Shown here in pieces: positions 7,473 to 64,000 of a stretch of 64,000 nt of DNA. Position numbers and translations under genes: made by a program. The notes under the pieces were generated by a model. The model was not told where the DNA came from, searched no databases, and was given only the letters and a program-made list of their open reading frames with translations. The DNA comes from Rhizophagus irregularis (taxonomy: Eukaryota): assembly GCF_026210795.1 (NCBI RefSeq), contig NC_089432.1, positions 4,960,001 through 5,024,000 on the forward strand. Direction: 5' to 3'. Every line of letters starts with the position of its first letter. The stretch's first letter is position 1.

Positions 7473-9017
7473 ATGTCTAATAATACAACAATACAAGATA
7501 CCGAAAATACAAATGAATCGAACGCTTGGATTGAAGAAGTTATTGATAAAGATCACTTAAATTATTACGATTACAACCAATTTAGTAACATTCAAGAAAT
7601 TGGTTCCGGAGATTTTGGAAAAGTGTACCGTGCAAATTTGAAAAATTTAGAAAAATTTTTTACGTTAAAATCTTTTTTTAATCTTGACAATATCACTATG
7701 AAAGAGATTGTTCGTGAGGTAATTAATATTAAATATATATATTTTTTTTACAATCCATGATTTTTATTGTTTTTTAAAAATTTAAAATTTAAAATTTATT
7801 TAGTTAAAAATTCAGCATGAAGTTGGTTTTCATGATAATATCATTCGTTACCATGGAATATCAAAATTTGAATCAGGTATTATAAATTACTTTAAAAAGT
7901 GTAATATTCTAAGTTTTATTTATAAAATCTCATTTCAATAACTGTTTTTTTTCTTAGAAGATAATGAACATCATATTAATTATATCCTGGTAATGGAATA
8001 CGCAGACAGTGGTAGCCTTCGAAACTATTTGAAGAATAATTTCGGTAAGCTTACTTGGAATGATAAGCATCATATGGCTTATCAGTTAGCTTGCGCTGTA
8101 TCATGCCTACATAATAAGGGAATTTCCCATTGTGACTTGGTAAACATATTTATTATAATGATAACGTTTATATTTTTATTTATTTATTAAAATATTTGTT
8201 TTTTTTAATAGCATTCTGGCAACATATTAGTTCATCAAAATATGATCAAATTGGATTTTGGGTTATCGAAAAGAATTGGAGCATCAATTAATTTTCAATC
8301 CAAAGAGATGATTCCTTATGTTGATCCAAAAATCTATAATAATAACAATAACCAAATAACACAAATGTTAACATTAAATGAAAAGAGTGATATTTACAGT
8401 ATTGGTGTGTTACTATGGGAAATTTCTAGTGGGTTACCTCCTTTTTATGCTAAAGATAATCAATATGATGTTAATTTAACTTTGGAGATTGCACAAGGTC
8501 TTAGAGAAGAAGTTGCTTTTGACACACCTGAAGATTACATAAAAATTTATACTAGTAAGTTTTAATTAATTTAATTATAATTTAATTATTACTTAACTAA
8601 TTTTGAATTATTTTTTCTTTTTAGAATGTTGGGGTGAACCAGATAATCGTCCTACTATATATCAAGTAGTTGATTGGTTAAAAGCAATTATTACAAAATC
8701 AAAATTAAAAGATTCTCAATTCTCAAACAATCAAAAATTTAATTCAAAATCAAAAGAAGAATTATTTCAATTTATCAAAAATTTTGATAAAATAAATATA
8801 AAAGAAATTGATCCTATAACAATAACAAATAAAAGAGAGAAACTTTTATTTGAAAAAGGTTATGATATAATAGTTGATGAAATAAATGATTATTTAATTA
8901 AATTAGCAAATAAAGGAATTGAATGGATATTATTAAGACAAGAAGTTATTAAATATTTTAATAATCATAATATAAATTTAAAAGAAATTTATAATTGGTT
9001 ATTAAATAATCAAGATG

Positions 9018-9049
<32 letters not shown>

Positions 9050-9739
9050 TCAAATATAATTTTTTTATTTGGATATTTTATATTTTTTGAAATTGAAACA
9101 AAACTTAATATTGAAAAAGCATTTAATTTATTTTTAATTGCATCAAAAAAGAATCATATATTTTCACAATATTTAGTTGGAAGTTGTTATAAATATGGTA
9201 ATGGTACTATAAAAAATGAAAAATTAGCTTTTGAATATTTTGAAAAATTGGCTAATAAAAATTTTACTTATGGTCAAGTTGAAATTGGTTTTATTTATAA
9301 AAATGGTATAGGTGTTAAAAAAAATTCAAAAAAAGCTTTTTATTGGTATGAAAAAGCTGCAAATAATGGTAATTTAACAGCTTTAAATACTCTTGGTCTT
9401 TATTATAAAAATGGTATTGAAGTTGAAAAAAATTATATTAAAGCTTTTGAATTATTTAAAAAATCTGCTAAAGATGTTTATCCAAATGGTTTAAATTCTT
9501 TAGGTTGTTGTTATGAATTAGGTATTGGAACTAATATTAATATGAAAAAAGCATTTGAATTATATCAAAAATCTGCAAATTTGGGTGATAAGGGTGCTCA
9601 ATATAATCTTGCTATGATGTATGAAAATGGAAAAGGTATTTTAAAAGATATAGATAAAGCTATTTATTGGTATGAAAAATCTGCTAAACAAGGTGATCAA
9701 GATGCACAATATGAATTGGATAAACTTAAAAATCAATAA
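7473..9739 (+). CDS. Kinase plus Sel1-like repeat protein, copy K2, divergent catalytic motifs
   Basis: Exons approx 7473-7718, 7804-7876, 7958-8139, 8212-8554, 8625-9739; frame stays open; GSGDFG, HCDLHSGN, KLDFG; poly-Asn tract from (AAT)10 at 9020-9049. Confidence 0.85.
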
Positions 9740-14109: not shown

Positions 14110-16323
14110 GGAAAAAAAAAAACAACTCTTTCCCGTGGGAACCAAAATTCTTAGAATTCCGCAGTAAGACTAGTAAAATATTAATAAAAATTTAAATTTT
14201 TTGCTTTTTCTTACAAAAAATTATAATAAAATGGAGTCATACCGGGGACAAGAGGAGTTCGAAGAACAGCTCTTAAGAGATGTCAAGACTTTTGTAACAA
14301 AAAACTTCAAAGAAGCTCAGTTACGACAAAAAGAGGAGCTGGACGATACCTTCGATAAAATTTTTTTCAGGACGCTTAAAACCCACAGGCTACTAGTCAA
14401 AATTAGTGAGATAACAGGTATAAAGGGTGAAAATGTTGAAATAATAGCAAGAAGTATAATGAGGTTTGCATATAGAATACAAAATAACGACGTTCAAAAT
14501 ATTGGAAAACAAAATTCTCGCCTTCGTTCATGGCTGCGCCAAGCGCAGCAAAAAAAAAATCTGACACATGATACAATGCTAAATGCAGAAATTGATAGCG
14601 AGTTAAAACACCAATCAAACACGTCCAAGAACAAGGAAAAAAGCAAAAAAAAGAAAAACGTAAAAAAAATTAAAAATAGAATAGTTCAGGAGATTGTACT
14701 TCCAACAAAAGCCGATCAGGTCCCAGGTTAGGAGGCGCAAGGAACTCGGTCACGTGACATGCTTTTTTATGATATTCCAGTACGCTATAGCGAGACAGAA
14801 GTATGCAACGCAATTAAACAATTAGGAACGGTGCATAGAATTACAATAAAAAAACATTATAAATATCAATCGATGAAAGCCGAGATTTCATTATTAGAAG
14901 AATACGAAGATTCGTTCGTGAAAGGAGCGTGGAAAGAAAAGATACTGATTGGAAGCAACGAAAAAAATAAAAAAGTCATTGATGTCCGTTGGTTCCATGG
15001 AGACAAGACAGTAAAAGACATAAAGGAAAAATGCAAGTGGAAAGCCTACAAAGTGATTCAAACGAATTACTACCAAGACATAGCGAGAAATAACTTCACC
15101 TTCGAATTTGGAAAAACAGCGTGTTTTGGAAATAAGACGGTTTTCTTAGCATATTTCAAAAATAAAGAACAACTCGAAGCAGCGATCGCCATGGATAAAA
15201 GTATGGATAACAAATGGGTAATACATGGAAGACGCAATGAGAGTATGGTGAAAATAGCCTCAAAAGAGGTGACAGTCAGATCTCTCATAAGCACATCCCC
15301 GGGAAAAACTAACAAAGTAATATCTATTAACAACCATGGATCAACATCAGCTACGCCTAATACTGTCATCCATACAACCACAGAAGAAGTAGTAGATACT
15401 GTTAACAAATACAGGAAGAATTTGCTGGATGAAACCGAAACACCTATTCATCCATCAGTAACGCCTACGATAAAAGGTTACACTTCACCGGAGAATGTGG
15501 TTAAGATTATTAAAGAATATAGAGGAGAAGTATTTACAGAACATGAAAAAGCACTGATTCAAGAAGAAATTCTTAAAGACTTATCGGAGAAAGAGGAGAA
15601 AGAGGCAATGATTGAAAGAAGAAGAGAAGAGCTTACATTAGAGTTTAAAGCGTACGCTCAAAGAATGGAAGAAAGAAGGGAAAAAAAAGAGGAAGAAAAA
15701 GGAAAACCGATAAGTAAAATCGTTACGCCTGTGGAATTACATGAATTTGCCAAAGTCAACGCTGATTGTACAGAAAGACTACAAAAGGAGAGTGATCGTC
15801 CATATACGCTCTCAAACAATAATCCCTTTTTAAAGGAAGAAGAAGACAAGTCACCTTTATCAGAGTCTTCGGACGATGATGAATGTTTAAAAGATGTCAA
15901 AAAGCGTATAAAGAAGAAACAAGGCGCAAGAAGTAGTGATTCGGAAGAAGATTCAACCATAGATAGCTTGAGCGAAGTCGAAAGGAAGACGGAACTCCAA
16001 CCTGAAACTAAACCCGATACTGATAAAATAAATAAAACACCCCTGGAAGGTTTTAGTAGAGGGTTAAAAAAGGGTAGGAGTAGAATTAAAAAAAAGTAGA
16101 TTAGGATAGTTTTCATACAGATGTAATAATTTTATTTTAGTTTATCTTTGGTTATGTTTATCCGCGCCTTGGTTAGATAACCCATGGCTTTGGTATGGAG
16201 GGGTTCAAGATTGTATGATCTTGAATTTCAAGTATTGTTGTTATAAATTATTATGTATTTGTGATGCGTTACTTTTACTATTAAAATTACTATATACGTT
16301 TACCAAAAAAAAAAAAAAAAAAA
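14110..16323 (+). mobile_element. Non-autonomous ORF1-only non-LTR retroposon, family A copy A1
   Basis: 16-bp TSD AATAATTTGCACAAAA (14094-14109, 16324-16339); poly(A) at ~16305-16325 after ATTAAA; the paralogous K5 promoter (~29445-29465) shows the empty site; no RT. Confidence 0.9.
14231..16099 (+). pseudogene. ORF1/Gag-like protein (helical N-terminus, two RRM-like segments, charged C-terminus) with one in-frame TAG at 14729-14731
   Basis: ORFs 14201-14731 and 14759-16099 share a frame; SRDMLFYDIP..AIKQLGTVHRI resembles the start of an RRM; homologous to the ORFs in A2 and A3. Confidence 0.7.
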
Positions 16324-16437: not shown

Positions 16438-18754
16438 ATGTCTGATAATAAACAAATGAAAAATACAGAAAATACAAATGAATGGATTAACTGGATTGAA
16501 GAAGCTGTTGATAAAGAACATTTAAATTATTATCAATACAACCAATTTACTAACATTCAAGAAATTGGTACCGGAGGTTTCGGAAAAGTGTACCGTGCAA
16601 ATTGGAAAAATACAAAAAAACAATTAGCGTTAAAATCTTTTTTTAATCTTAATCACGTCACCATGAAAGAAATCGTTAGTGAGGTAATTTTATATAATAC
16701 ATTTTTTTTTTTTTACAATATTTTATTTTATCTAGCCTATATTATATTTATTTTTAATATTTGAATTTATTTAGTTAAAAATTCAACGTAAAGTTGATTT
16801 TCATAATAATATAATTCGCTGCTGTGGGATAACAAAATTTGAATCAGGTATTAATGAGATACTTTAATAAATAAAATATTCCAAATTTTATTCATAGAAT
16901 TACATCTCATTAATTATTTCTTTTTTTTTAGAAAATCAAATTAGCAATAATTATATGTTGGTAATGGAATACGCCGACGGTGGTAGTCTTTGAAACTATT
17001 TGGAAAAAAACTTTAGTAAGCTCACATGGGACGATAAATTAAATATGGCGTACCAATTAGCTTACGCTGTATCATGCTTGCATAATGAAGGAATCATCCA
17101 TCGTGACTTGGTAATTTACAAATCATTTATAATAATTTAGTTATAATAATATTATATTTCATTATTTATCTCATTTGCTTTTTCTAATTAATAGCATTCT
17201 GGCAATATATTAGTTCATCAAAACACGATCAAATTGGCAGATTTTGGGTTATCAAAAAGAATTGGAGAATCATCCAATTTCCAATCCAAATTATTTGGGA
17301 TGGTTCCATATGTTGATCCGAAAAGCTTTAACAAACGAAGAAATAATAATAATCAAATGTTTTCATTAAACGAAAAAAGTGATGTTTACAGTCTTGGCGT
17401 ATTATTATGGGAAATATCTAGTGGGAAACCTCCTTTTTATACTGAAGGTGAACAATATGATGTCAGTTTAATTTTGGATATTTCACAAGGTCATAGAGAA
17501 ACGGTTATTCCTGATACGCCCGATGATTATGTAGAAATTTATACTAGTAAGTAAAATTAATTTAAGTTTAACTAGAGTATTATTTTAATTAATCTGAAAA
17601 TTATATTTTTATTTGTTTTAGAATGTTGGGATGGTGAGCCTGATAATCGTCCTATCATATATCAAGTAGTTGATTTGTTAAAAGCAATGATTACAAAAAC
17701 AGATATAATAACGGAAAATCCTCAATTATCAAATGAACAAGAATTTAATGAGGTCTCCATAAGTACCAATAAATCGGAATCACAAGGAGATTTATCTTAA
17801 TTTATTCATTATTTTAATAAAATGAATACAAAAGAAATTGAAGATATCATGGCTGTACCAAATGAGCAAGAGAAACTTTCAGCTAAAAAAGTTTTTAACA
17901 GAGTAGTTGATGAAACAAATGATCTAATTTTTAAATTAGCAAATAAAGGAATTGAATGGAAATTAATAAAAAAGGAAGTTATTGAATATTTTAATAATTA
18001 TAATACAAATTCACAAGAAATTTATAATTGGTTATCAAATAATCAAAATAATTCAAATTCAATTTTTTTACTTGGATATTTTAATTATTTTGAAATTGAG
18101 ACAAGTGAAAATAATGAGAAAGCATTTAAATTATTTATTAATGCATCAGAAAAAAATCATATATTAGCACAATTTTTTGTTGGTGAATGTTATAAAAATG
18201 GAAATGGAACTATAAAAAATGAAAAATTAACTTTGGAATATTTTGAAAAAGTGGCTGATAGAAATTATGCAATTGGACAATTAGAAGCTGGTTATTTTTA
18301 TAAAAATGGAATAGGTATTAAAAAAGATTTAAAAAAGGCTTTTTATTGGTATAAAAAAGCTGCAAATAATGGAAATATAATAGCCATGCATAATTTAGGT
18401 AATTGTTATTTACATGGAGAGGGTGCTGAAAAAGATTATAATAAAGCTTTTGAATTGTTCAAGAAATCAGCTGAAGAAAATTATTTTCGTGGAATAACAA
18501 TGTTAGGATATTGTTATGAAAGAGGTATTGGAACTAAAATTGATAAGCAAAAAGCATTTGAATCATATCAAAAATCGGCAAATTTAGGAAGTTTAGTAGC
18601 ACAATATAATGTTGGTATTATGTATGAAAGTGGAAAAGGAATTACAAAAGATATAAATAAAGCGATTTATTGGTATGAACAATCTGCCAAACAAGGATAT
18701 CAAGATGCACAAAATAAATTAGAAATACTTCAAAAAAAAATCAATAATTTATAA
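16438..18754 (+). pseudogene. Kinase plus Sel1 repeat gene K3, nonsense-disrupted
   Basis: Same exon structure as paralogs but TGA at 16991-16993 (CGA in paralogs) and TAA at 17798-17800 (CAA in paralogs). Confidence 0.88.
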
Positions 18755-20425: not shown

Positions 20426-22691
20426 ATGTCCGATAATAAGCAAATGAAAAATACCGAAAATACAAATGAATGGATTAATTGGATCGAAGAAGCTATTGAT
20501 AAAGAACATTTGAATCATTATGAATATAACCAATTTACTAACATTCAAGAAATTGGTGCCGGAGGTTTCGGGAAAGTGTACCGCGCAAATTGGAAAAATA
20601 CAAAAAAACAATTAGCGTTAAAAACTTTTTTTAATCTTAATTATGTCACCATGAAAGAAATTGTTCGTGAGGTAATTTACTGTATATATAATATAAGATG
20701 TTTTTTAGCCTATATTATTATATTTTAATATTTGAATTTATGTTAGTTAAAAATTCAACGTAAAGTTGATTTCCACGATAATATTATTCGTAGCCATGGA
20801 ATAACAAAATTTGAATCAGGTATCATAAAGAGATTTTAATAAGTATTATATCTAAATTTTATTCACAAAATTTCATTCCAATTTTTTTTTTCAGACAACA
20901 AAATTGGTAATAATAATTATATAATGGTAATTGAATACGCTAACGGTGGTAGTCTTCGAAATTATTTGGAAAAAAACTTTAGTAGGCTTACATGGGACGA
21001 TAAATTAAATATGGCGTACCAATTAGCTTATGCTGTATCATGCTTGCATAATGAAGGAATCATCCATCGTGACTTGGTAATTTATTTATTATTAATTAAC
21101 CATTGTTCGTAATACTGTATTTGTATTTATTTATTTAATGTATTGTTTTAATAGCATTCCGGCAATATATTAGTTCATCAAAACATGATCAAATTGGCGG
21201 ATTTTGGGTTATCGAAAAGAATTGGAGAATCATCCAATTTCCAATCTAAATTATTCGGGATGGTTCCCTATGTTGATCCTAAAAGCTTTAACAAACGAAG
21301 AAATAATAATAGCCAAATATTTTCATTAAATGAAAAAAGCGATGTTTACAGTCTTGGCGTATTATTATGGGAATTATCTAGTGGGAAACCTCCTTTTTAT
21401 ACTGAAGGTGAACAATATGATGTTAGTTTAATTTTGGAAATTTCACAAGGTCTTAGAGAAACAGTTGTTCCTGACACGCCCGAAGAATATGTAAAAATTT
21501 ATACTAGTAAGTAAAATCTTAAATTTGTTATAATTTAAATATTGTTTAATTAATTATATTTGTGCTTTAGAATGTTGGGAGGGTGAGCCAGATAATCGTC
21601 CCACTACATATCAAGTAGTTGATTTGTTAAAAGCAATGATTACAAAAACAGATATAATTACGGAAAATCCTCCACTATTAAACGAGCAAGAATTTAGCGA
21701 GATTCATTTAAATACCAATAATTTGGAATCACAAGGAGAATTATCCCAACTTATTCAAAATTTCGATAAAATGAACACAAAAGAAATTGATAATAGAGCA
21801 GTATCAAATAAGCAAGTAAAACTTCCAACTGAAAAAGATTTTAACAGAATAGTTGATGAAACAAATGATTTAATTTTTAAGTTATATAATAAAGAAATTG
21901 AATGGTATTTAGTAAAAGAGCAAGTTATTGAATATTTTAATAAATATAATACAAATTCACAAGAAATTTATAATTGGTTATCAAATAATCAAAATAATTC
22001 AATTTCAATTTTTTTACTTGGATATTTTAATTATCTTGGAATTAAGACAAGCCGAAATTATGAGAAAGCATTTAAATTATTTATTAATGCATCAGAAAAA
22101 TATCATATATTAGCACAATCTTTTGTTGGTGAATGTTATCGATATGGACATGGAACTAAAAAAAATGAAAAATTAGCTTTTGAATATTATAAAAAAGTGG
22201 CTAATATTAATTTCACACGTGGACAACTTAGAATTGGTTATTGTTATGAAAATGGAATGGGTACTGAAAAAGATTTAAAAAAGGCTTCTTATTGGTATGA
22301 AAAAGCTGCAAATAATGGAAATATAATAGCAATGCATAATTTAGGTGGATATTATTTAAGGGGAGATGGTGTTGAAAAAGATTATAAGAAAGCTTTTGAA
22401 TTGTTTAAGCAATCAGCCGAAGGAGGACATTCAGGTGGAATTGTAATGTTAGGATATTGTTATGAAAAGGGTGTTGGAACTAAAATTGATAAGCAAAAAG
22501 CATTTTATTTATGTCAAAAATCAGCAGATTTAGGTTATGTGTCAGCACAATATAATCTTGGTGCTATGTATGAAAATGGAAATGGAATTACAAAAGATAT
22601 AAATAAAGCGATTTATTGGTATGAAAAATCTGCCAAACAAGGATATCAAAAAGCACGAAATAGATTAGAAATACTTCAAAAAAATAAATAA
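20426..22691 (+). CDS. Kinase plus Sel1-like repeat protein, copy K4, apparently intact
   Basis: Five exons as in paralogs; GAGGFG, ALK, HRDLHSGN, ADFGLS; no internal stops seen; Sel1 repeats in the last exon. Confidence 0.9.
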
Positions 22692-29568: not shown

Positions 29569-32044
29569 ATGTCTGATAATAAACAAATACAAAATAGTGA
29601 AAATACAAATGAATGGATTAATTGGATTGAAGAAGCTATTGATAAAGAACATTTAAATTATTATGAATATAACCAATTTACTGACATTCAAGAAATTGGT
29701 GCTGGAGGTTTTGGAAGAGTGTACCGTGCAAATTGGAAAAATACCAAAAAACAATTAGCGTTAAAATCTTTTTTTAATCTTAATAATATCACCATGAAAG
29801 AAATTGTTTGTGAGGTAATTAATTATATAATACATTTTTTTTTTACAATATTTTTTTTTATCCAGCATATATTATATTTATTTTTAATATTTGAATTTAT
29901 TTAGTTAAAAATTCAACGTAAAGTTGATTTTCATGATAATATAATTCGTTGCTGTGGAATAACAAAATTTGAATCAGGTATTAATAAGAAAGATACTTTA
30001 ATAAATAAAATATTCCAAATTTTATTCATAAAATTACATTTCATTAATTGTTTCCTTTTTTTTTTAGAAAATCAAATTAGCAATAATTATATGTTGGTAA
30101 TGGAATACGCCGACGGTGGTAGTCTTCGAAACTATTTGAAAAAAAACTTTAGTAAACTCACTTGGGACGACAAATTCAATATGGCGTACCAATTAGCTTA
30201 CGCTGTATCATGCTTGCATAATGAAGGGATCATCCATCGTGACTTGGTAAATTTATTTATTATTATTTAATCATTGCTCGTAACACTATAGTATTTGCAT
30301 TTACTCATTTAATATATGTTTTTTAATAGCATTCTGGCAATATATTAGTTCATCAAAACACGATCAAATTGGCAGATTTTGGACTATCAAAAAGAATCGG
30401 AGCTTCATCCAATTTTCAATCCAAATTATTTGGAATGGTTCCTTATGTTGATCCTAAAAGCTTTAGCAGACGAAGTAATAATAATAACCAAATGTATACA
30501 TTAAATGAAAAAAGTGATGTTTACAGTGTTGGCGTATTATTATGGGAAGTATCAAGCGGACGACCTCCTTTTTATGCTGAAGGTGAAGAATATGATGTTA
30601 GTTTAATTTTGGAAATTTCACAAGGTCTTAGAGAAACGGTTGTCCCTGATACACCTGATGAATATGTAAAAATTTATACTAGTAAGTAAAATTTTAAATT
30701 TATTTTAACTTAAATATTTTCTAATTAATAAATTATATTTGTGTTTTAGAATGTTGGGATGGTGAACCTGATAATCGTCCTACCATATATCAAGTAGTTG
30801 ATTTACTAAAAGCAATAATTACAAAAACAGATATAATAATGGAAAATCATCAATTATTGAATGAAAAAGAACTGAATGAGGTTCCTTTAAGTACCAATAA
30901 TTCAGAATCACGAGGAGAATTATCCCAACTTATTCAAAATTTTAATGAAATGAATACAAAAGAAATAGATAATATAATAATGGAAAATCCCCAATTATTG
31001 AATGAGCAAGAACTTAATGAGGTTCCTTTAAGTACCAATAATTCAGAATCACGAGGAGAATTATCCCAACTTATTCAAAATTTTAATGAAATGAATACAA
31101 AAGAAATTGATAATATAGCAGTAGTAAATGAACAAGAGAAATTTTCAACTGAAAAAGATGTTAACAGAATAGTTGGTGAAACAAATGATTTAATTTTTAA
31201 ACTATATAATAAAGGAATTGAATGGAAATTAATAAAAGAGCAAGTTATTGAATATTTTCATAATTATAATACAAATTCACAAGAAATTTATAATTGGTTA
31301 TCAAATAATCAAAATAATTCAAATTCAATTTTTTTACTTGGATATTTTAATTATTTTGGAATTGAGATAAATAAAAATAATGAGAAAGCATTTAAATTAT
31401 TTATTAATGCATCAGAAAAAGATCATATATTAGCACAATTTTTTGTTGGTGAATGTTATTTTTATGGACATGGAACTATAAAAAATGAAAAATTAGCTTT
31501 TGAATATTGTGAAAAAGTGGCTGATAGAAATTATGCAACTGGACAATTAGAAGCTGGTTATAGTTATGAAAATGGAATAGGCATTGAAAAAGATTTAAAA
31601 AAGGCTTTTTATTGGTATGAAAAAGCTGCAAATAATGGAAATATAATAGCTAAGCATAATCTTGGTGATTGTTACTTAAATGGAAATGGTGTTAAAAAAG
31701 ATCATAATAAAGCTTTTGAATTGTTCAAGCAATCAGCTAATGGAGGATATTCAAGTGGAATCTTAATGTTAGGATATTGTTATGAAGAAGGTATTGGAAC
31801 TAAAATTGATATGCAAAAAGCATTTGAGTTATATCAAAAATCAGCAAATTTAGGAAATGAGATAGCACAATATAATATTGGTACTATGTATGAAAATGGA
31901 AATGGAATTACAAAAAATAAAGATAAAGCGATTTATTGGTATGAAAAATCTGCCAAACGAGGATATCAAGATGCACAAAATAGATTAAAAATACTACAAA
32001 AAGAATCAACAATTCATAAAATAAAATCTTTATTTTTTAAATGA
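29569..32044 (+). CDS. Kinase plus Sel1-like repeat protein, copy K5, intact, with a 47-aa internal duplication
   Basis: Five exons; canonical family motifs; 141-bp tandem duplication at ~30839-31120. Confidence 0.9.
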
Positions 32045-46098: not shown

Positions 46099-49048
46099 GT
46101 TTATTTATTTATTTATTTTATTACTAAAAGAGTAGTAGAACCAGACTATTACAAATAAAAGAAAAAAGAATTCGAAAAAAAACTTAAACCTAATATGTGT
46201 ATATAGAACTTTGTTCTTCATCCCCTACGGGACCTCACTCTTTGATCTGTACTATTTGATAAAGTAGGACTATGCTAATTAATCAAATGGAAACCATAAA
46301 AAAACCATCCAAAAAACTAGCTACTATTTACAAAAAAGAAAAATTAAAAGGGCAAGTATATGTAGTCTAACTCTATCCTACAGCAATCAAAATTAATAAA
46401 AAATTAAGATCCGTATTTTCCTTTCAACTAAGGTTACCACCTGTGAATACTGTAAGAGGTGAAGTGGTTTACACTATTTTAAGTTGTGTTATTCGTATGA
46501 TAACGTAATACGTATACTTTTTGTCAAAATGACAAAATACTAATTAAATTTATTTTGACAGACGTAATGTATTTTGATAGATGTAATTAATTCATAGTAA
46601 TTTTATAATAAATAGTGAATTGGTCCATTCACCAAAATATAATGTAATTAATTAGCGGAGAAGTATAGTAATATGAACTAAAATGTAGACTAAACTACTA
46701 GATAAGGGTATCGTACTCCTGATATAAGAATACTAATATATATAATATATAAATTTTAATCATGCTTAAAACCTGAAGATCCAATTGCCAGGGAGTCAAT
46801 ATCTGTAACTGGTGTGAGACAGAGTCATTTCATTTTGTAATTCTGAAATGAGAAATAATGATTCTTATTGTGAACATCGTCATGTTTATTAGGTTGATAT
46901 TCAATAGCTGCTGTATCATCAGATACTATGGCGAATGTGTGGGTAGGATATTTCATAGTTCTTTGAGTTCGAAGATTATTTTTCTTGAGAAAATTGGTGA
47001 GTTTTTTATCTAAGGAAGCTCAACTTAGGCCTTGTTGATGTCTATTGTCTCTGTTTACCAAGTAATTAGGTATATAACTATGAAAACTTTCTGATGCATG
47101 CGTTAGAGATGCGATGTTATTAACATGAGCATTATAATGCTTTGGAGTCATTCCATGATATGTTGCTTCTGCTTCCAACTTTAGTCTGTTGATTCTATGT
47201 TGTTGACTTTTTTCTACAATATGTGACGGTACATAAATTCCCATAATGTCAAAACGGTATATTGGAGTTCTTGTGATATATTTGCCTCTTGTATTATAGC
47301 GTGAAGTCTTATCTTCAGATGGATAAAAAGATTCATCAACATTGTACATATAAGTAAACCACTCACAAGATTCAGGAACCACATAACGATCGTTCACATA
47401 AATCAGATCTTTTGGTATAATATCATGGTATTTTGTAGGTATGAATACATCCAGAATCGGGTTGTAATCAACAGGTGGTACTGAAGGACTAAAAAGCATT
47501 GACGCTTGATTGAGTTTCATCATGATTTGTTTCTTATAATTTGAATCTATCACAAAATAAGGAACCAAAAATGGATAATCGTCAGCGTTCAGAATCAAAT
47601 GAGATTGTTTGTACAATAAATATCGAATGAGTACTTTGACATATTGAGATTTCAAGAATAAAAAATGATATTTGCACACCATCGCCAAATAATCCTGATT
47701 TTTAGCCTTACGATTGAATGGTAATCGCATTTTATTAAATACACGACGGCAAGTGCATTTAAAACATATATTTTGCTGTTTTTGCGTCCGTAAATTATGA
47801 TTTAAGGTGTATTGGAAGTTGGACAAAGTTTTTTGATACATATGTCTATTGCCCAGTTTCGTGATAAAAGAGAATCTCTAGCATGAATATTACTATTATA
47901 GGAAATACCCAGTTGTCTAGAGGTAATACGTTTTAATTTATCATCAAGCCATCTGTAATATAATAAATTTGCATAAGAGGCCTTGTTATTAACGAAATCT
48001 GTTGGTACATGTTCCGATTTCTGTTCATTTTTAGGTTTGATATTCTGGAAACATTGTGTTTTTGCAAAAATATGTTGATAAGTGACGCATGCGCTTCTAT
48101 ATTGTGATATGACAAACGGAGTAGAAACATCACACTGTATATCTTTGTGAAAATGTTTAGAGTTATTGATATGAGGGCAAGAATTGAATATGCCAAATAA
48201 AAGTGACATTTCTTATAAGTGAAATTAAAAAAAGATTTTGTAGAATAATTTCTATTGGTTGTACTAGAAGTACGTGAGCTTATTATTTTAATTCTATCCA
48301 ATAATTTGTTACGTAAGAAATTAAAATATTTATCTTGTATATGACGAGGAATAACTCTTTGTGAAGAAAAAAAATGCGTAAGCATACAGCTAATTTGATA
48401 TTTGTGGCTGGAAAATGAACTTGTGTTGATATAATAAATCAGTTTAGTCTTCATATGATAATCATTTGTGTGTATCTTCAAATGAATTTCATTGGCGTTT
48501 TGATTCTGATGATTAGCAAGCTCAAAAAAGAAACTCCTAGATCGGCGGATTTCATAAATCTTGTTATAACCAGATTGGTTTGGCGTAGTCACGTGAAATT
48601 TTTTCAGGGAGACCAAGAGAGTATTTTTTTCTGGTCCTTAGGTAATTTTTTTGAAAAAAAATTATTATTTTGTTGAATAGAGTTATTATTAACTGGAAAA
48701 TAATCATCAATATCCAGGGCAAAAATATCCTTTGTTGTGAGAACATTTGACATGTCGTCTTCAGGTGGGTGGTATTGATAGTCATCTACTGACGGTGAAG
48801 GTTCACCTAGTTGAATAAAAGAGTGTGAATAACTAGACCAGTCTATTTTGACATAATTTGAAGAAGTCATATTCCTTTAGGTATGGAAATAATAAGAACA
48901 GAAAAACCTCGTATTGCGACCAGCGGCGCCCAGTTGGGCCTCCTCCCCTTTGAAGTTTTCTTAGAAAACTATAAAAATGAACACAACGCTATATTACTGC
49001 AAAAAATTATCAAAAATAAAAAAGGGAAAGAGTTTTTTTTTTTCCTAT
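46099..49048 (-). mobile_element. Family B non-autonomous retroposon, copy B2 (frameshifted ORF ~48870-46830)
   Basis: TSD TAGTATTA(G/A)ATCAA (46085-46098, 49049-49062); 5' GG(A)11CTCTTTCCC; (TAAA)n tail; overlapping ORFs 48604-48870, 47933-48616, 47802-48209, 47020-47841. Confidence 0.82.
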
Positions 49049-54395: not shown

Positions 54396-54614
54396 CAGTG
54401 TTCGGCAAATGACTTGAAATGAACAAATGACTCAAATGACAAGTCATTTGTCATTTGTCATTTGCAACTCAAATGACCTGTCATTTGAGTCATTTGAAAA
54501 ATATTAAATATTCTGAGAATTTTTACTAATTATTTTGTTTATTTTAATTAAGAAAACAAAAATATTAAAACAAAATTGGTTTAATATATATAATCAAAAA
54601 AGTTCCAATAGTAG

Positions 54615-57600
54615 CTAGGGGATAGGTAAATAAACGGGGGGGCCAACTCAAGGTTACACAGGCTGATCAGTGATCGGACAGAACTGAAGCCTTATAAAAC
54701 TGGTTACACAAGCGAAGCCTCGATATTAAAAATTTAGTTTTTTTAGTTTTTCTCGCCACATATACATAGAAAAGCAGCCGATCTCAAAAACTAAGACCAT
54801 TTATGCTAGCTCTAAATAAACGAATTGTTTTTATCAAAATCGAACCACTGTAGCTTTGCAAGGGTTACTTTTTTTCTTGTTAATTTATAAAAACATATTG
54901 AAAAGTTATCATTTTATCGTTTCATGCTTTTATTGCGTGAATTTTGGCTTTAACAAGTACTTTATTCTGTAAATTTTGGCTTCGCTATATTACTATTCTA
55001 CAAAAATTTGTCCTTTTGATATGGCTTCATTGGAGAAGGGAGTTTCTTTTTTAAGGTGATCCAAAATTAAAAATATTAAACTTTTTTTTTTCTTGTACCT
55101 TGCTTTGTCCCCAAAGGCCCAAAGTAACCACTGTAACTCACTTACTAAAAACATTTTTGAAAATTCTTCTTCAGCGCCATCCAATTTTGCCCAGATTTGA
55201 AGCTGTACTAATGCAAGAATAGGATCCTTTGGAACGTTAGATTTTTTCATCAATGTATGTGTATTTTTAGTTTTGGAGGTTTTGGATGAATTTTGAATAT
55301 CATTTCGCATGGCTTTCAGGTTTTCTCTAAGACTTGAGGTGCCTTTCTCAGGAATGAGATCATTGAATTTTCGCCAAGACTTTTGCCTACTCTTCATATA
55401 GATAGAAATAATTCGTTCGTAAAGAAAATTTTTAGCGTCATCTTTTAATTCCTGTTTTTCAGGTTCATGTATAGAGAGCATTTGACTGGAAATATTAAGA
55501 AGTGCGTTAAAAGCTCCTAACAATAGTGAGTTGCACATTAAACTATTATTTATATAATGCAGAATATTGGGACCAAGTTCTTTGTGCTTTTCAAATAACA
55601 ATATTATTAATGACTCCATTTTGTACATGAATTTTAAAAAATCTTGGCCTGGAACTACATTTGTCGTCTGTGATCGAACATCTTTTTCATAGACAACTTG
55701 TTCTGAGCTTAGAATCATGAGGTGAGCACGAATGATATCAAATTTGGGATGTGATCTTATTATTTTATCACTTTTTGTTAATTTATATATAACCCATCCA
55801 ATGATGTAAGAAAACTTTAATGCTTCAGCTGGTTCTAAAACAAGAATTTTTTCAGGTTCCAGATAAGAATCAGCCAAAAAATGAGTGTGTATACTATTTG
55901 GTGTTGTTTTCTTACTAAAAGTGAGTTTGATTACATTTTGTAAAAGTAAGTATGCAATAAGCCTTTGAGTTGGAGAATCATTTAAATTAGTTATAGAAAG
56001 AAAGTCTTGATACCAAATCCCTGAACATTGATAATTATTAAGATAAATTTCAAGGTGAGAACTCCAACTGGCTAACCATTGAATTCCTGTTTTTTTTGGA
56101 ATAGCTTCACTCGCCATTTTTTTAATAATGTCTTGCCATTTATGTAGTAATTTATCAATAGAATCCTGGTAAAGTATAGTTTCTATAAGATTACATCGTT
56201 CCTTTTGAAAGAAAGCAATTCTAACATTTTCTTGATTAACGTGTTCATCATGTGATTCTAACGGAATCTCAATTCTCCCCATAATCAAATTGTCTGCGAG
56301 AAGGTTTTTAAAGACATTACTAGAAAGAGATGATAATTGTGCCAAACGGATAAAGTGCTTCTGATCGGTAATATTTTCATCATTTTTTACTGAAATTTTT
56401 TTATCTTTTCGATAGTCTCTAATTGTTAAATAATATTTTAGATAATATTTGTATGAATAGGGACAATGGCGTACAAGTAAGGACATTTGTTAAATAAAAT
56501 TATAATATATACCTTCTTTCTAATGTAGTAATGCCAGCTCTAGTACTATCAGCTTTTCCATAATTAATACTTTTTACTTCAGATGAAACTAATGCTGTCA
56601 CTTGATATTTATTTAGAGCATGTCCATAAGATTTGAGAGTATGTGTTGAGGAGTCCCCACCAAGTTCACGAATATTACCAAAAAGCCCTTCAAGCATATC
56701 TTGTGAAATGCGTCTTGGTTGAATCATTGAACCTGGATACTTTTTCAAAAAATAGTTAATCATTCCAAGAAATCCATTAATAGATAAAATCAAATCAAAT
56801 TGGCATTGTGATGAAATCCATTCTTTAGGATCTTTTTTTTGTTTATTACCATCTACAAACCAATTATATATTTCTTTTAAAGTATTAATACGTGGATCTT
56901 CTAAAGATTGAAAACTGATTTTACTATGCATAATTTGACGATATTTTCGTGAATATTTACTAAATTCCTATAAAAAAAGTAAATATTTTAAAAATTATAA
57001 AATTATATTAATTGTAATAATTATTTTGTACTTACTCTTGTTCCTTCTGAGATTTTTTTAAGTTCATCAATAGATGCCAATGCATCTTCAACTTCTTTTG
57101 ATATAGTATGTTCTGCAAGATCAACACGCATCTTGCTCCATGAAGTTAACCATATATGACGTTTTGTAAGTTTTGTAGCTTGAGCTGTTGCATGTTTAAT
57201 TGTATGATCATATACGCCTTTTATGTGCTTCCAACTAATCTCCTTTCCATTAAACATTATTTCTCTGGAATTTTTTTCATCTATATGGCTTTTTGATAAG
57301 TTATTTCTTAATTTCTTAAATACATGTGTAGGATCACTAATAAAGAACCAATCTTCTCCAGTAATAGGATTTATTGTTTTATAATTTGTTGAAAGTCATT
57401 CAATATCATGAACAGGTCGAAGAAATTCACTAATATGATGATTAAAAACTTGCCATTCTTCAATAGGTTTATTTTTTGATCCAGGAATTTCTACAGTAAA
57501 TATTGATGTAATAGAATCAAAATTTGTAATTTTTCCTAAATACCATTGATTATCTTTTGGATTTTTAAATTCACAAAATTCATTAATATTCCATTCTGAT

Positions 57601-60241
57601 TTTAAAGGTGTTTGTGGACGAATAAAAGCTCGATCAATTGTAATTTTTGTAAAACTATCCCAATCAAGCTGACGTACAGTAAACTTTGTCTTTTCAAAAT
57701 TGCTATCTACAATTTCTGCTACATGATAAGATTTTTTGTCTTTTCTGAAATTAACTTCTACAAGATCACCAGATGACCACTTTGATGCATACCAATCAAA
57801 CCTTTTGATATGGTTTCTATTTTCACCTGCTCCATCACAAATTGAACCAATTGTATGTATACCTATACATTCTAATTTTGCTGCAAGACTAAAAATCAAT
57901 GTGTTTAAGTTATGTGCTGTCATATTATTAATGCCATAATATGATATAGGAAAAGAAAAATTATGAGTTATTGAATGCCAAACAAATTGGTGAACTTGAG
58001 TTGCAAGTTTGCGATCCTGTTTTTCAGATATAGAATTAGATAGGGAATTCTTTTCTTTTAATATTTCATGTTGACATTGTATGGCAAATTCTTGATATTC
58101 TTGCATTTCATTTTCAAAATCCAAATAGCCGACATAACAATTTTCACGTTGACTCCAAAGAAGACCTATAATTTCAAATAATTTATTTCAAAGTTAGTTA
58201 TATGTATTTGTTTAAAAACAGTTAAAAATAAATAAATAACCTTTTTGAATTTTAAATTAATCATGTGAAAAAAACCCTATTCGTCCATATCCCCAAACTT
58301 TATTTGTTGTTAAACTTGCTAACATTTGATGAGCAATTTTGTCTTGCCATCCCGAACATTGTTCATTTTCATTTATGTAACTTTTAAGTGTGGAGATTGA
58401 TGGTAAATGCATAATTGTTTTCATTGCATTATAAGCCGCATATCCAGATTTACTATATACAGATATAGCCCAGCGCAAAAACCTGCAATAAAGAAATATT
58501 AAATTTTTTTTTTGCAAATGAATTACCATTATTTGTTTTACTTACATTGGATGATATCTTGTTCCATTCAGCTTTTTTGCTTGAATGTGAATAAGTTCTT
58601 GAAAAATAGGATGCAAGTTTGAAATATCTACATTTTTGCTAGCAATATTTTCAGAAACAGTATGAACAACATTTGCAATTTTAGTTGACACTTGTATTTC
58701 TTCTTTTTCTATTTTTTCTTGCAATCGTTCTTTTATATTTGAGATTGTTTAATTTTCAATTTAATAATTTTTCGTTGTTCATTAACTTTTTCTGCAAGAA
58801 CATCTTTAGATGCATGTATGACTTTCATAGAATTTATGCCAGCCAAATATCTTCGACGAATTTGCTGCATTGTTTTTTGTAATTTTTTACAATTCTTACA
58901 CATATCATTATTATTTTCTGCCACAAGTATGCAGTCTATACGTCAGTATGCTTCACCTGGTTGACCTTGTTTTTCCAAAAAAGCAAAAGGAACGTGCTCT
59001 TTATTGCTAGTTTGTGCATTATTAATAAGCTGAGTTCCTCGAATGTATACTACATCACTAAAACCTTAAATTTCAAAATATTTGTTTAAAAAAATATATA
59101 TACATATATAAAATTATATAGTAATAACTTTTAAATTACCATTAGTGTTTTGTCCATAACAAATTCTAAGAGAAAAAATATATTGTGTAAGGATTTTTAT
59201 TTCGTCAAGAGATCTTTTCATTGGTTTGGCAGGAAAAGGAAGATGTGCTTCTTGTAATATTTTATCAAAAACACAAACTTCATATCCAAGTAAAACACCT
59301 TTAGCTATAATTATCATTTTCTTCTCTAATTGTCCCTCTCTTCCAAAAAAATGAAACTCAAGACCATCAGTAATTTTTTGTACTATAGTTCCCAAAAATA
59401 TTCCCTCTAGAAAAATCTTTTTTTGAATTAACGAAAAAATTTCCTCAAGACTTGTATACGTAGATGTTTTCCAGTATGAAGAATAATTTGATTCACCAAG
59501 AATTGATGCAATTGATGGGCTATTAGGATTTGGTTCCAAAAAAATAGTTGCAAAAGCTGACCTATGTCCTTTAAATAATCTTAAATTTTTTAGTGCAGTT
59601 ATCCATTTAGAGAAAGTATCATACTTTCGATCATTCTTAACACTGTATATATAAGCTTTTTTTTCCTTTGCGTCAAACATTATCACGCCCTCAAAGTATT
59701 TATCCAATGCCGGGAAAAAATAAACGGTTTTTCCTTTGAGATCAGGCCTGATATGCACAAGTTCTTGCAGTGTTTCTATCTTTTTTTGCTTTTTTACTGG
59801 TGGGGAATCACTGGTACCCTTAAAAGATCGTTTTTCTTGATTCTGTTAGTCATAGAAATATAAAAATATTACAATTTATTTCAAAAAAAAATAGTAACAG
59901 CGTTAGTTTCTTTTTGCAATTCACCATTTCTCCAAGTTATCTCTAATATTTGTCTAATTAAAAGGTATCTAGTTCACCGATCCAGTTTTTTTAAAGAACT
60001 AAAAGACGAACTGCAATAAAATTTATACTGGAGATAGTCACGCGTTACATCGTTTTCGGGGTGGTTTTTTTTTGAATAATCATTAATTGGTATTCGTGGC
60101 TTTTACTTAAGTAAAGTAGCGTTTTACAAAGATTATCATATAATTTTATATGTTTTTCATATGAGGCTTCAGTTCTGTCCAATCACTGATCAGCCTGTGT
60201 AACCTTGAGTTGGCCCCCCCGTTTATTTACCTATCCCTTAG
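54615..60241 (-). mobile_element. Full-length P-superfamily DNA transposon
   Basis: ~80-bp nearly perfect TIRs (CTA(G/A)GGGATAGGTAAATAAACGGGGGGGCCAACTCAAGG...); 7-bp TSD ATAGTAG (54608-54614, 60242-60248); encodes a P/THAP9-type transposase. Confidence 0.88.
54993..59927 (-). pseudogene. Multi-exon P-element/THAP9-like transposase with several nonsense mutations
   Basis: Motifs LPSISTL, FFSHD*FKIQKGLLW..YVGYLDF, ICDGAGENR, FISDPTHVFKKLRNNL, WSKMRVDLA, RISQDMLEGLFGNIR; stops at ~58944, 58257, 57396 and a frameshift near 58750; probable ATG at 59927 followed by an intron ending CTAACAG at 59843. Confidence 0.85.
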
Positions 60242-61371
60242 ATAGTAGTAAAGATTTTTTAATCACGTGATTTTGTTATTATTTTACAGGTTATTATTTG
60301 TTAATAATATTATTATAGACAGGATTATTTCACTTATAATTATTTCACTAATGATCATTTTATCCACACAGATAAAAGTTAATTGATTTTGCAATAAAAT
60401 ATTTAATTGTAACACATGTAGTGGATCCCATTTTTCACCATTTTTATATATAATTGTTGTCTTTATTTAATCATAAGATGGCCATAATATTTATTTATGC
60501 ATATAATTATATAATAAAATTATATATAATAAATAACATATCAGATATTATCACTTTAATAATTATGGTTGTGTTATTTATTATTTTCAGATTACAGTAA
60601 AAAATAAATAATTTGGTGAAATTGATTCTGTTTGTGATTATTTCGATTACGTCCTTCCTTTTTTGTACATCACGTGATTATGAATTGTCCAATAATCTTT
60701 AAATATTTTAATGACAAATGACCAAATGACAAAGGACGCAAATGACAGTCAAATGATACCCAATCATTTGGCATTTGTCATTTCGCGAATAATTCAAATG
60801 CCAAATGCCAAATGATGGGGTGTCATTTGACCAAATGACTCCTAATCCGAAAAATGGTCAAATGACCAGGTCATTTCCGAACACTGTGACGTGTGCTATT
60901 ATTAATCGTATTTTATAGTTGTTTACCTTGCCGATTCTTAATGAACAATACCGGAATACCAGGATAGGTAGTATTGAGTAAGAATCCCGTTGGTAATTTA
61001 CGATATAAAACTGCTAGCTATATGACTCTTATTTACTGATATAACCGGTAACATAACTAATTATTTGAATACTGAGGATAATGAATCTTACTTAATGTTG
61101 ATTCTTTTTTTTAAAAAGAATAAATGCATTTATATAATAATTCAATTAATAAAAAAATTAATAAAAAAATTCCATCATAAATCTCTTTTTTATAATTCAC
61201 AATTTGTTCGTTAGATTTTTAACAAAGATTCGTTTACTAATATCTTTCACTGATGAGTTACTAGATATTTAAATTTTAATTCACATGAATTAAATAACTT
61301 TATATCATTAATAATAACCCGGAAAAATTATGTATAGTTCGAAATTTTTTTTTGAAATTTTAATACTATTA

Positions 61372-62234: not shown

Positions 62235-64000
62235 ATGTCTGATAATAAGCAAATGCAAAATACCGAAAATACAAATGAATGGATTAATTGGATTGAAGAA
62301 GCTATTGTTAAAGAACATTTAAAATATTACGAATACAAAGAATTTAGTAACTTTCAAGAAATTGGTACCGGAGGTTTTGGAAAAGTGTATCGTGCAAAGT
62401 GGAAAAACTTAGAAAAAAGTTTTGCCTTGAAATCTTTTTTTAGTCTTAATAATATCACTATGAAAGAAATTGTTCGTGAGGTAATTTAATATTATAATTA
62501 ATTTTTTTTTTTTACTCTATAATTTTTTAGTATTATTATATTTATTTTAAAAACTTGAATTTATTTAGTTAAAAATTCAACGTGAAGTTGATTTTCATGA
62601 TAATATTATTCGTTGCCATGGAATAACAAAATTTGAATCGGGTATTTATATAAAGATACTTTAGTAATAAATATAATCTTTTAAGATTTTATTCACAAAA
62701 TTGCATTTCAATAATGATATTTTTTTTTTTAGAAAATCATCTTAATAATAATTATATGTTGGTAATAGAATACGCTGACGGTGGCAGTCTTCGAAATTAT
62801 TTAAAGGAAAATTTCGGTGAACTTACCTGGGACGATAAGTACCTTATGGCGTATCAGTTAGCTTGCGCAGTATCATGCTTGCATGATGAGAAGATTATTC
62901 ATCGTGACTTGGTAATTATTATTTTAGTCATTTTTAGGTAATTCAATGTTTGTATTTATTCATTTAGCACGCACTCTTTAATAGCACTCTGGCAATATAT
63001 TAGTCCATAAAAACACGATCAAATTAGCGGATTTTGGTCTATCAAAAAGAATTGGAGCATCGTCCAACTTTCAATCTAAATTATTTGGGATGGTTCCTTA
63101 TGTTGATCCAAAAAGTTTTAGCAGACGAAGAAATAATAATCAAATGTTTACATTAAATGAAAAAAGTGATGTTTACAGTGTTGGCGTATTATTATGGGAA
63201 ATTTCTAGTGGACAACCTCCTTTTTATGCTGAAGATGAACATTATGACGTTGGATTAATTTATGACATTTCACAAGGTCATAGAGAAACGGTTGTTCCCG
63301 ACACCCCCGAAGATTATATAAAAATTTATACTAGTAAGTAAAATTAATTTAAATCTAACTAGAGCTATTATTTTAATAAATTTTAAATTATATTTTTAAT
63401 TGTTTTAGAATGTTGGGACGGTGAGCCTGATAATCGACCTACTATTTATCAAGTAGTTGATTGGTTAAAAGCAAAGATTACAAAAACAGATATAATAACG
63501 GAAAATCCTCAATTATCAGATGAACAAGAACTTAATGAGGTTCCTTTAAGCACCAATAATTCAGAATCACAAGGAGATTTATCTCAACTTATCCAAAATT
63601 TTAATAAAATGAATACAAAAGAAATTGATAATATAGTAGTATCAAGTGAGCAAGAGATACTTTTAAATGAAAAGGATTTAAAGGATTTTAACAGAAAAGA
63701 TTTTAGCATTATAGTTGATGAAATAAATGATTTAATTTATAAATTATGTAATAAAGGAATTGAATGGAAATTAGTAAGAGAGCAAGTTATTGAATATTTT
63801 AATAATTATAATACAAATTCACAAGAAATTAATAATTGGTTATTAAATAATCAAAATAATTCAAATTCCATTTTTTTACTTGGATATTTTAATTTTTATG
63901 TAATTGAGACAAGCCGAAATTATGAGAAAGCATTTAAATTATTTATTAATTCATCAGAAAAAAATCATATATTAGCACAATCTTTTGTTGGTGGATGTTA
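62235..64000 (+). CDS. Kinase plus Sel1-like repeat protein, copy K7 (continues beyond the window)
   Basis: Exons as in paralogs; GTGGFG, ALK, HRDLHSGN, ADFGLS; no stop seen up to the window end. Confidence 0.85.

What the first reader, a model, noticed from the sequence alone, without database searches (positions are those of the whole stretch)
57400..57780. Tandem Agenet/Tudor-like module inserted inside the catalytic core of a P-type transposase
Seen: between ICDGAGENR and NPITGEDWFFISDPTHVFKKLRNN lies ~125 aa made of two similar halves, WSSGDLVEV..SYHVAEIV..KFTV..IDRAFIRP and WNINEFCEF..NQWYLGKIT..IFTV..EFLRP. Established: this linker is short in Drosophila P and THAP9, and the pattern G(D)xVEV..W/Y.A.I..V..IRP, repeated twice, typifies Agenet/Tudor methyl-lysine/arginine readers. 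Inference: a chromatin reader built into the transposase could steer integration or excision. I do not know of this architecture being described.
Basis: partly seen in the sequence, partly recalled or inferred. Interest (0 to 1): 0.85.

Follow-up and report, generated by a model that had tools for sequence, protein, structure and literature searches.

The report
Tandem Tudor inside fungal P transposase
A family of cut-and-paste jumping genes in mycorrhizal fungi carries a predicted pair of Tudor domains (a fold often used to read chromatin) inserted into the catalytic core of its transposase; it likely helps grip DNA or chromatin during jumping, but it lacks the usual methyl-reading pocket.

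Summary
Confirmed. The stretch lies in a dead 5.6-kb P-superfamily transposon (54615-60241; 78-bp terminal inverted repeats; 7-bp target duplication confirmed by empty sites). Its closest named protein is from Rhizophagus irregularis (98%). Between the second catalytic Asp and the DPxH motif lie 167 residues, against 36 in Drosophila P. About 130 of them fold (AlphaFold pLDDT 88) into two Tudor barrels whose best structural matches are plant tandem Agenet domains (Z 11.4). The insert is a family trait across Glomeromycota, sits inside one exon, stays in a spliced contig of a related copy and is under moderate purifying selection (dN/dS 0.50, core 0.15). The methyl-reader idea is weak: of three cage positions per barrel, at most one or two are aromatic, and not across the family. 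The transposase shows no THAP match; its N-terminal domain is predicted RAMA-like. Five of eight element ends lie 18-31 bp from a CACGTG motif, hinting at steered insertion. Best reading: a cage-less DNA/chromatin tether. Reader capture by transposons is known, but my searches found no Tudor inside a DNA transposase's RNase H fold.

The parts
54615..60241 (-). Whole P-superfamily element, 5627 bp, defective copy
   Evidence: TIRs and TSD; tblastn of full-length homologs spans 59839-54999
54608..54614 (+). Left 7-bp target site duplication (ATAGTAG)
   Evidence: empty-site contigs carry one copy (table 7 compared)
60242..60248 (+). Right 7-bp target site duplication (ATAGTAG)
54615..54692 (+). 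Left terminal inverted repeat, about 78 bp, begins CTAGGGG
   Evidence: 2 mismatches to the right TIR in 78 bp; same terminus in 7 metagenome loci
60164..60241 (-). Right terminal inverted repeat
54993..59927 (-). Transposase pseudogene, 7 inferred exons (GT-AG introns 59924-59843, 59139-59065, 58545-58483, 58240-58166, 57035-56968, 56512-56419); broken by stops at 58945-58943, 58259-58257 and 57398-57396 and a frameshift near 58757
   Evidence: introns 1 and 5 seen removed in contigs of run X6, the other four inferred from sequence and homologs
59480..59782 (-). Predicted RAMA-like N-terminal domain, in place of THAP
   Evidence: homolog P0003 residues 22-122 match the MPND RAMA domain 7ydt (Z 8.7, 88 of 92 residues) and CcrM 6pbd (Z 7.6); no Pfam hit; boundaries transferred by alignment
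58260..58262 (-). First catalytic Asp (SHD), inferred equivalent of Drosophila D230
   Evidence: D in 29 of 32 rows; codon
57834..57836 (-). Second catalytic Asp (ICDG), inferred equivalent of D303
   Evidence: D in 46 of 51 rows; Pfam TNP-like_RNaseH_N ends just after it
57606..57788 (-). Tudor/Agenet module 1 (the one kept in single-module Entrophospora copies; conserved basic K16, K25, K35, R53)
57399..57605 (-). Tudor/Agenet module 2 (cage positions S/N, Y/H, I)
57324..57335 (-). DPTH motif at the end of RNase H strand beta5; start of the GTP-binding-type insertion domain
   Evidence: aligned to Drosophila DTPH; Pfam TNP-like_GBD
56689..56700 (-). QDMLE: D528-equivalent and catalytic Glu (E531-equivalent)
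57036..58165 (-). Single exon holding the second Asp, both Tudor modules, DPxH and the first half of the GBD
60263..60270 (+). TCACGTGA in the right flank, CACGTG 22 bp outside the TIR

Best explanation
This is a Glomeromycota family of P-superfamily cut-and-paste transposons whose transposase carries a predicted tandem Tudor/Agenet pair inserted in the RNase H core, where it likely acts as a cage-less tether that grips DNA, nucleosomes or a chromatin-bound host protein. Shown: the DD-E triad, the DPxH motif, a GTP-binding-type insertion domain, TIRs and a 7-bp TSD; the insert between the second Asp and strand beta5, a second insertion besides the usual one after beta5; its retention across five Glomerales/Diversisporales genera as a pair and in Entrophospora as one module; purifying selection. 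Predicted: the two-barrel fold and an N-terminal RAMA-like DNA/nucleosome-binding domain replacing THAP. Inferred: the enzyme excises and inserts like Drosophila P, and the Tudor pair (with conserved basic residues on module 1), possibly with the RAMA-like domain, biases target capture toward open, factor-bound DNA such as the flanks of CACGTG sites. This window's copy is dead.
For: P membership: Pfam TNP-like RNaseH_N, GBD and RNaseH_C; family profile hits 6p5a at E 1.6e-4; TSD and empty sites. Fold; 8 of the 9 non-family hits of the insert among 1.84 billion representatives carry Tudor/Agenet Pfam matches. Retention: 20 of 28 held proteins with both anchors span at least 140 aa and 5 span 91-139; 9 of 9 metagenome loci spanning both anchors hold both modules, 4 of them with no stop in the matched exon. 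dN/dS 0.50 (bootstrap 0.38-0.60). Cage absent family-wide while K16, K25, K35 and R53 are 77-89% conserved. RAMA-like domain; the MPND RAMA domain binds dsDNA, histones and nucleosomes (PMC9963953, passages). CACGTG lies 18-31 bp from 5 of 8 ends with at least 40 bp of flank, against a window background of 1.2%.
Against: No binding was tested. The AF2 model of full-length P0003 did not resolve the RNase H core (pLDDT under 50, pTM 0.32), so the Tudor pair's position relative to target DNA is unknown. The insert evolves three times faster than the core. Its net charge is near neutral (-4 to +5), weak support for DNA binding. The basic residues were not tested against a background and the homologs are close (29-99% identity). 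The CACGTG link was noticed after the fact, rests on 6-7 sites and one window's background, and could reflect general insertion into open DNA. In L007 the two 7-bp flanks match at only 4 of 7 positions.
Confidence: 0.5

Rival explanations
1. The pair is a methyl-lysine or methyl-arginine reader, using a reduced cage (F14 plus Y/H22 in module 1, or Y/H83 plus E110 in module 2) to steer insertion by histone marks.
For: Top structural matches are H3K9me2-binding tandem Agenet domains, SGF29 and UHRF1. Position 83 is Y or F in 23 of 35 rows and H in 12; E110 (25 of 33) sits roughly where AGDP1's cage-capping Glu lies (the mapping is my inference). The window's own module 1 has F14, H22 and W43.
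Against: AGDP1/ADCP1 use three aromatics in barrel 2 (Y122/W127/F144; Y301/W306/F323). Here those positions are aromatic in 0 of 41, 23 of 35 and 0 of 33 rows, and in module 1 in 17 of 41, 11 of 44 and 1 of 44. One large subfamily has I/E/L in module 1. The large acidic surface described for AGDP1 is not suggested by net charge.
Confidence: 0.2
2. The insert is a tolerated passenger: captured once in a permissive loop and kept only because it must fold so as not to disturb the catalytic core.
For: dN/dS 0.50 against 0.15-0.16 for the core; most invariant residues are hydrophobic-core or structural; module 2 is missing in Entrophospora copies.
Against: No lineage that cleanly lacks both modules was found: the 3 of 28 short spans are automated gene models that look like splices around lesions (inference, their DNA was not checked). 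A neutral 130-aa insert would be expected to be deleted somewhere over the age of the phylum (inference).
Confidence: 0.17
3. The pair works inside the transpososome, binding the element's own ends or another subunit, taking over part of the role of the missing THAP domain, with no effect on target choice.
For: No THAP match; TIRs are long (78 bp) and strongly conserved among divergent copies; some Tudor/SH3-like barrels bind nucleic acids (e.g. 6kco PWWP-ssDNA; the integrase CTD is recalled).
Against: A RAMA-like domain and an inferred HTH region are already available for end binding; no sequence-specific contact was tested.
Confidence: 0.13

Closest known systems
Drosophila P element transposase (PDB 6p5a) and THAP-type P transposases
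   Same: DD-E RNase H split by a GBD-type insertion after beta5; DPxH; RxxQDxxE; 4 of 8 GTP-site residues identical in P0003 (K385, V401, S409, D528) and K400 replaced by R.
   Different: An extra ~130-aa tandem Tudor before beta5; no THAP match, a RAMA-like domain predicted instead; much longer protein (full-length homologs 1,200-1,375 aa against 751); F443/D444/N447 not kept; 7-bp rather than 8-bp TSD; TIR starts CT (P's CA start is recalled).
Galileo and 1360 (P superfamily)
   Same: 7-bp TSD (PMC3698922 passages); flanks loosely fit NTANTAN (Galileo's GTANTAC consensus is recalled).
   Different: Insect elements; no Tudor insert is known to me; transposase relationship was not tested.
Plant tandem Agenet readers AGDP1/ADCP1 and AGDP3; FMRP/FXR; SGF29; UHRF1 tandem Tudor
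   Same: Tandem barrel fold (Z 11.4, rmsd 3.0 over 118 residues to 7yta) with a Pro-rich linker between the barrels.
   Different: The three-aromatic cage is not conserved; at most 24% identity; embedded in an enzyme's catalytic fold.
Reader-carrying transposons: chromoviruses, PHD/Chromo-TE fusions, Ectocarpus Gypsy-10_Ec32 (Tudor)
   Same: A Royal-family domain fused to a mobile element's enzyme, thought to aid targeting.

Membership tests
P superfamily transposon | Split RNase H with DD-E triad and D(2)H motif | tested here: met
   (the D(2)H label is recalled)
P superfamily transposon | GTP-binding-type insertion domain after beta5 | tested here: met
   Pfam TNP-like_GBD E 3.5e-9; 4 of 8 GTP-site residues identical, 1 conservative, 3 changed; GTP use itself not tested
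P superfamily transposon | TIRs and a 7-8-bp TSD | tested here: met
   78-bp TIR, 7-bp TSD, empty sites with one copy; L007's flanks match at 4 of 7
P superfamily transposon (animal type) | N-terminal THAP zinc finger | tested here: not met
   No THAP Pfam hit in full-length homologs or the window's N-terminal frame; RAMA-like fold predicted there. So it is filed as a P-superfamily variant, not a THAP-type P element.
Tudor/Agenet (Royal family) fold | SH3-like beta-barrel, in tandem | tested here: met
   (prediction, not an experimental structure)
Pfam Agenet PF05641 | Score above the curated cut-off | tested here: inconclusive
   25.8 bits against 27 for the window's insert; only 2 of 13 alignment members hit at E up to 0.5
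Tandem Agenet / Tudor methyl-lysine readers | Three- or four-residue aromatic cage | tested here: not met
   module 2: 0/41, 23/35, 0/33 aromatic; module 1: 17/41, 11/44, 1/44 (cage definitions); mapped by sequence alignment, not by model coordinates
Tandem Agenet / Tudor methyl-lysine readers | Methylation-dependent peptide binding | not testable with these tools
   needs peptide arrays or ITC
RAMA domain | Fold shared by MPND and the CcrM C-terminal domain | tested here: inconclusive
   Z 8.7 and 7.6 from the full-length model, both known RAMA structures on the same range; no Pfam or Atlas hit; the domain was not folded alone
Kolobok or PIF/Harbinger (considered because of the GGG-rich ends) | 4-bp TTAA or 3-bp TWA target duplication (recalled) | tested here: not met
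   the TSD is 7 bp and CTAG belongs to the TIR

The most novel reading that the evidence does not exclude
A chromatin-guided P element: the transposase has traded THAP for a RAMA-like DNA/nucleosome sensor and grafted a tandem Tudor into its catalytic fold, and these tether integration 20-30 bp beside CACGTG sites held open or occupied by a host bHLH factor, making it a promoter-targeted DNA transposon in arbuscular mycorrhizal fungi.
Probability: 0.2. Interest if true: 0.85.

Novelty: new variant of a known kind. Interest (0 to 1): 0.62.

Why it matters
A 2025 paper called a Gypsy retroelement the first reported transposon with a Tudor domain (PMC12477816, passage). This family adds a DNA transposase with a Tudor pair inside the RNase H fold, at a site other than the usual insertion point. 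It shows a loop of the P-type catalytic core that tolerates a whole domain, a possible graft site for targeting modules. It also offers a testable route to how DNA transposons choose sites in the repeat-rich, mostly unclassified mobile DNA of Rhizophagus (two-thirds unclassified per PMC11075540).

Tried and rejected
No own genome is held, so copy number and genome-wide insertion sites were not counted. A pairwise comparison of the halves was not significant. Single-sequence PDB searches with the insert or P0001 gave only chance hits. I first read CTAG as a 4-bp TSD (Kolobok-like) and rejected this once the 7-bp ATAGTAG duplication and empty sites were seen. TIR-pattern scans of viral and prokaryotic contigs gave 8 loci; the 6 displayed are chance matches without the TIR, and L020 and L022 did not match the display pattern. 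The full-length AF2 model failed on the RNase H core and did not retrieve 6p5a. The Atlas gave Tudor/Agenet leads at 0.85-0.91 with a low recognition score for the insert and nothing for the N-terminal domain. No RNA holder was listed as RNA on record; two poly-A raw runs gave only 6 and 7 reads from about a quarter of each run, which says nothing firm about expression. No close cellular donor of the Tudor pair was found. The three word-indexed homolog searches reached only one P transposase outside Glomeromycota-named records, so the sister group is unknown. The tree is only the quick one, 20 of 55 rows were left out for low coverage, and its root is unsure. A DOI recalled for the P structure paper was wrong and nothing from it was used. 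No earlier findings came back. No complex prediction was run.
Full report
Observation. The second catalytic Asp and the DPxH Asp are 167 residues apart. In Drosophila P they are 36 apart (D303 from PMC7776569 passages; D339 counted from the 6p5a alignment), and in a THAP-type P transposase found in passing, 42. The halves are not significantly alike as single sequences (277 of 5000 shuffles) but are as profiles (HHalign 91.8%, E 7.5e-7).

The element. It runs 54615-60241, with 78-bp TIRs beginning CTAGGGG (CTAAGGG on the right) and the 7-mer ATAGTAG on both sides. Seven contigs of run X1 join sequence matching the left flank (27 of 30 letters) directly to position 60242, so empty sites hold one copy of the 7-mer. 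Seven-bp duplications are known for the P-superfamily members Galileo and 1360 (PMC3698922 passages). The same terminus occurs in 7 of 14 metagenome loci. In L007, the only locus with both ends, the two flanks agree at 4 of 7 positions, which may be an assembly chimera. The gene has seven inferred exons and is broken by three stops and a frameshift. Pfam gives the three TNP-like P domains; the family profile finds Drosophila P transposase (E 1.6e-4). The triad is conserved (29 of 32, 46 of 51, 25 of 29 rows). Of the eight GTP-site residues listed in PMC7776569 section 8, four are identical in P0003, one is conservative and three differ.

Family. All named homologs are Glomeromycota: Rhizophagus (98% over 250 aa to an R. 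irregularis protein), Diversispora, Glomus, Gigaspora, Dentiscutata, Entrophospora. UniRef's automatic name for three of the 39 hits is already 'Agenet domain-containing protein'. Of the 93 proteins held, 28 have both anchor motifs: 20 span at least 140 aa, 5 span 91-139 (three Entrophospora single-module proteins among them) and 3 are shorter, probably gene models spliced around lesions (not checked on DNA). All 9 metagenome loci that span both anchors hold both modules, 4 with no stop in the matched exon; half of the search patterns came from the insert, which biases this count. In a quick tree of 36 rows (20 of 55 left out, one outgroup added) the single-module clade sits among two-module lineages, suggesting loss, but the root is unsure.

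Not spliced out. The insert lies inside one exon, 58165-57036. A 2.8-kb contig of run X6 covers 57035-57881 and continues into sequence matching the next exon, so the downstream intron is removed while the insert is kept; another X6 contig shows intron 1 removed. No joint with canonical intron ends was listed inside the insert (15 of 17 joints were shown). X6 is only guessed to be RNA, and that copy carries indels. Pooled pairwise dN/dS over 9 sequences is 0.50 for the insert (bootstrap 0.38-0.60) and 0.16 and 0.15 for the flanking core; pairs are not independent and dead copies push the values up.

Fold. AF2 with a 50-row alignment gives two barrels at mean pLDDT 87.7. Foldseek's best hits are plant tandem Agenet domains (7yta E 4.7e-6; 6ie6), SGF29, FMRP and UHRF1; VIA ranks 7yta first (Z 11.4, rmsd 3.0, 118 residues). 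Of 29 phmmer hits among 1.84 billion representatives, 9 lie outside the family and 8 of these carry Tudor/Agenet Pfam matches. Because the GBD follows beta5 and begins at the DPxH His, the pair lies before beta5: a second insertion at a different site. That the second Asp ends beta4 is recalled general knowledge.

Reader or not. AGDP1 and ADCP1 bind H3K9me2 with three aromatics in barrel 2 (PMC6208443 and PMC6318295 passages). Mapped through alignments to SPF30 and to canonical Tudor repeats, the matching positions are aromatic in 0 of 41, 23 of 35 and 0 of 33 rows in module 2, and 17 of 41, 11 of 44 and 1 of 44 in module 1. The best-kept non-core residues include K16, K25, K35 and R53 in module 1 (77-89%), while the net charge is near zero. 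A classical methyl cage is therefore not what the family conserves.

Surroundings. The full-length model of P0003 left the RNase H core unresolved, but its N-terminal domain matched both solved RAMA domains named in PMC9963953, MPND (Z 8.7) and CcrM (Z 7.6). That paper reports sequence-independent dsDNA, histone and nucleosome binding and no 6mA preference in its hands. No THAP was detected. CACGTG lies 18, 21, 22, 22 and 31 bp outside 5 of the 8 ends with at least 40 bp of flank, against 1.2% expected from this window; binomial P is 1.5e-8, about 6e-5 after allowing for 4096 hexamers. All five CACGTG in 41.7 kb of the loci are in flanks. The motif was noticed after the fact, the sample is small and the link to the Tudor pair is untested.

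Mechanism. Most likely (0.5) the pair is a cage-less tether to DNA, nucleosomes or a chromatin-bound protein during target capture. Rivals: a methyl reader with a reduced cage (0.2), a tolerated passenger (0.17), an end-binding or subunit contact (0.13). The cut-and-paste chemistry is inferred from P; every step involving the Tudor pair is inferred.

Prior art. Reader capture by transposons is known, mostly PHD and Chromo domains (bioRxiv 2021.11.30.470311, passages; its supplement listing 823 fusions could not be seen), and a C-terminal Tudor in a Gypsy element was called the first in a TE (PMC12477816, passages). A fungal survey lists P elements as single occurrences and has no mention of Tudor (PMC5751038, passages); a Rhizophagus TE curation has none in its main text either (PMC11075540, passages). 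Searches for transposase+Tudor+Rhizophagus, transposase+Agenet, DNA transposon+Tudor domain+chromatin reader and P element+Tudor+Glomeromycot gave no description of this architecture in their listings. Repbase and subscription journals were not searchable.

Verdict. A real, family-wide and apparently undescribed architecture; a new variant of known kinds. Interest 0.62.

Noticed in passing
window 59480-59782 (-); P0003 22-122: The N-terminal domain is predicted RAMA-like (MPND, CcrM) in place of THAP; it may be as unusual as the Tudor insert.
   Followed up: partly
window about 59170-59460 (-); P0003 131-228: A second confident alpha/beta domain matches Mediator subunit folds (7emf_Q Z 8.9, 5n9j, 7ui9); role unknown.
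   Followed up: no
window 54996-56420 (-): A C-terminal region of about 470 aa, conserved in full-length homologs, has no Pfam match.
   Followed up: no
window 60264; L007 49 and 5495; L012 242; L014 64: CACGTG sits 18-31 bp outside element ends; TCACGTGA occurs 9 times in the window, far above my estimate of about 0.4 from base composition.
   Followed up: partly
window about 54396-54614 and 60249-60888: The P element is inserted in another high-copy repeat with inverted CAGTGTTCGG ends and many AAATGAC/GTCATTT subterminal repeats, possibly a non-autonomous hAT-like element.
   Followed up: partly
window 60184-60241: TIR depth in run X1 is more than ten times that of the element body, suggesting many non-autonomous copies sharing the TIR (depth is only a rough guide).
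   Followed up: no
window 175-930 (+): hAT transposase fragment (Dimer_Tnp_hAT E 6e-22).
   Followed up: no
window 2374-3513 (-), 8597-9736, 17801-18751, 21534-22688, 30725-32041, 63387-63998 (+): Repeated genes with a kinase-like tail and Sel1 repeats (Sel1 confirmed for two).
   Followed up: no
window 14177-16096 (+), 47023-48637 (-): Long open frames with no Pfam match, possibly mobile-element remnants.
   Followed up: no
P0051, P0057: Unnamed metagenome proteins with repeated Agenet- or PTM/DIR17-type Tudor modules resemble the insert; the Atlas's top leads are bacterial Tudor/Agenet clusters. A donor cannot be named.
   Followed up: no
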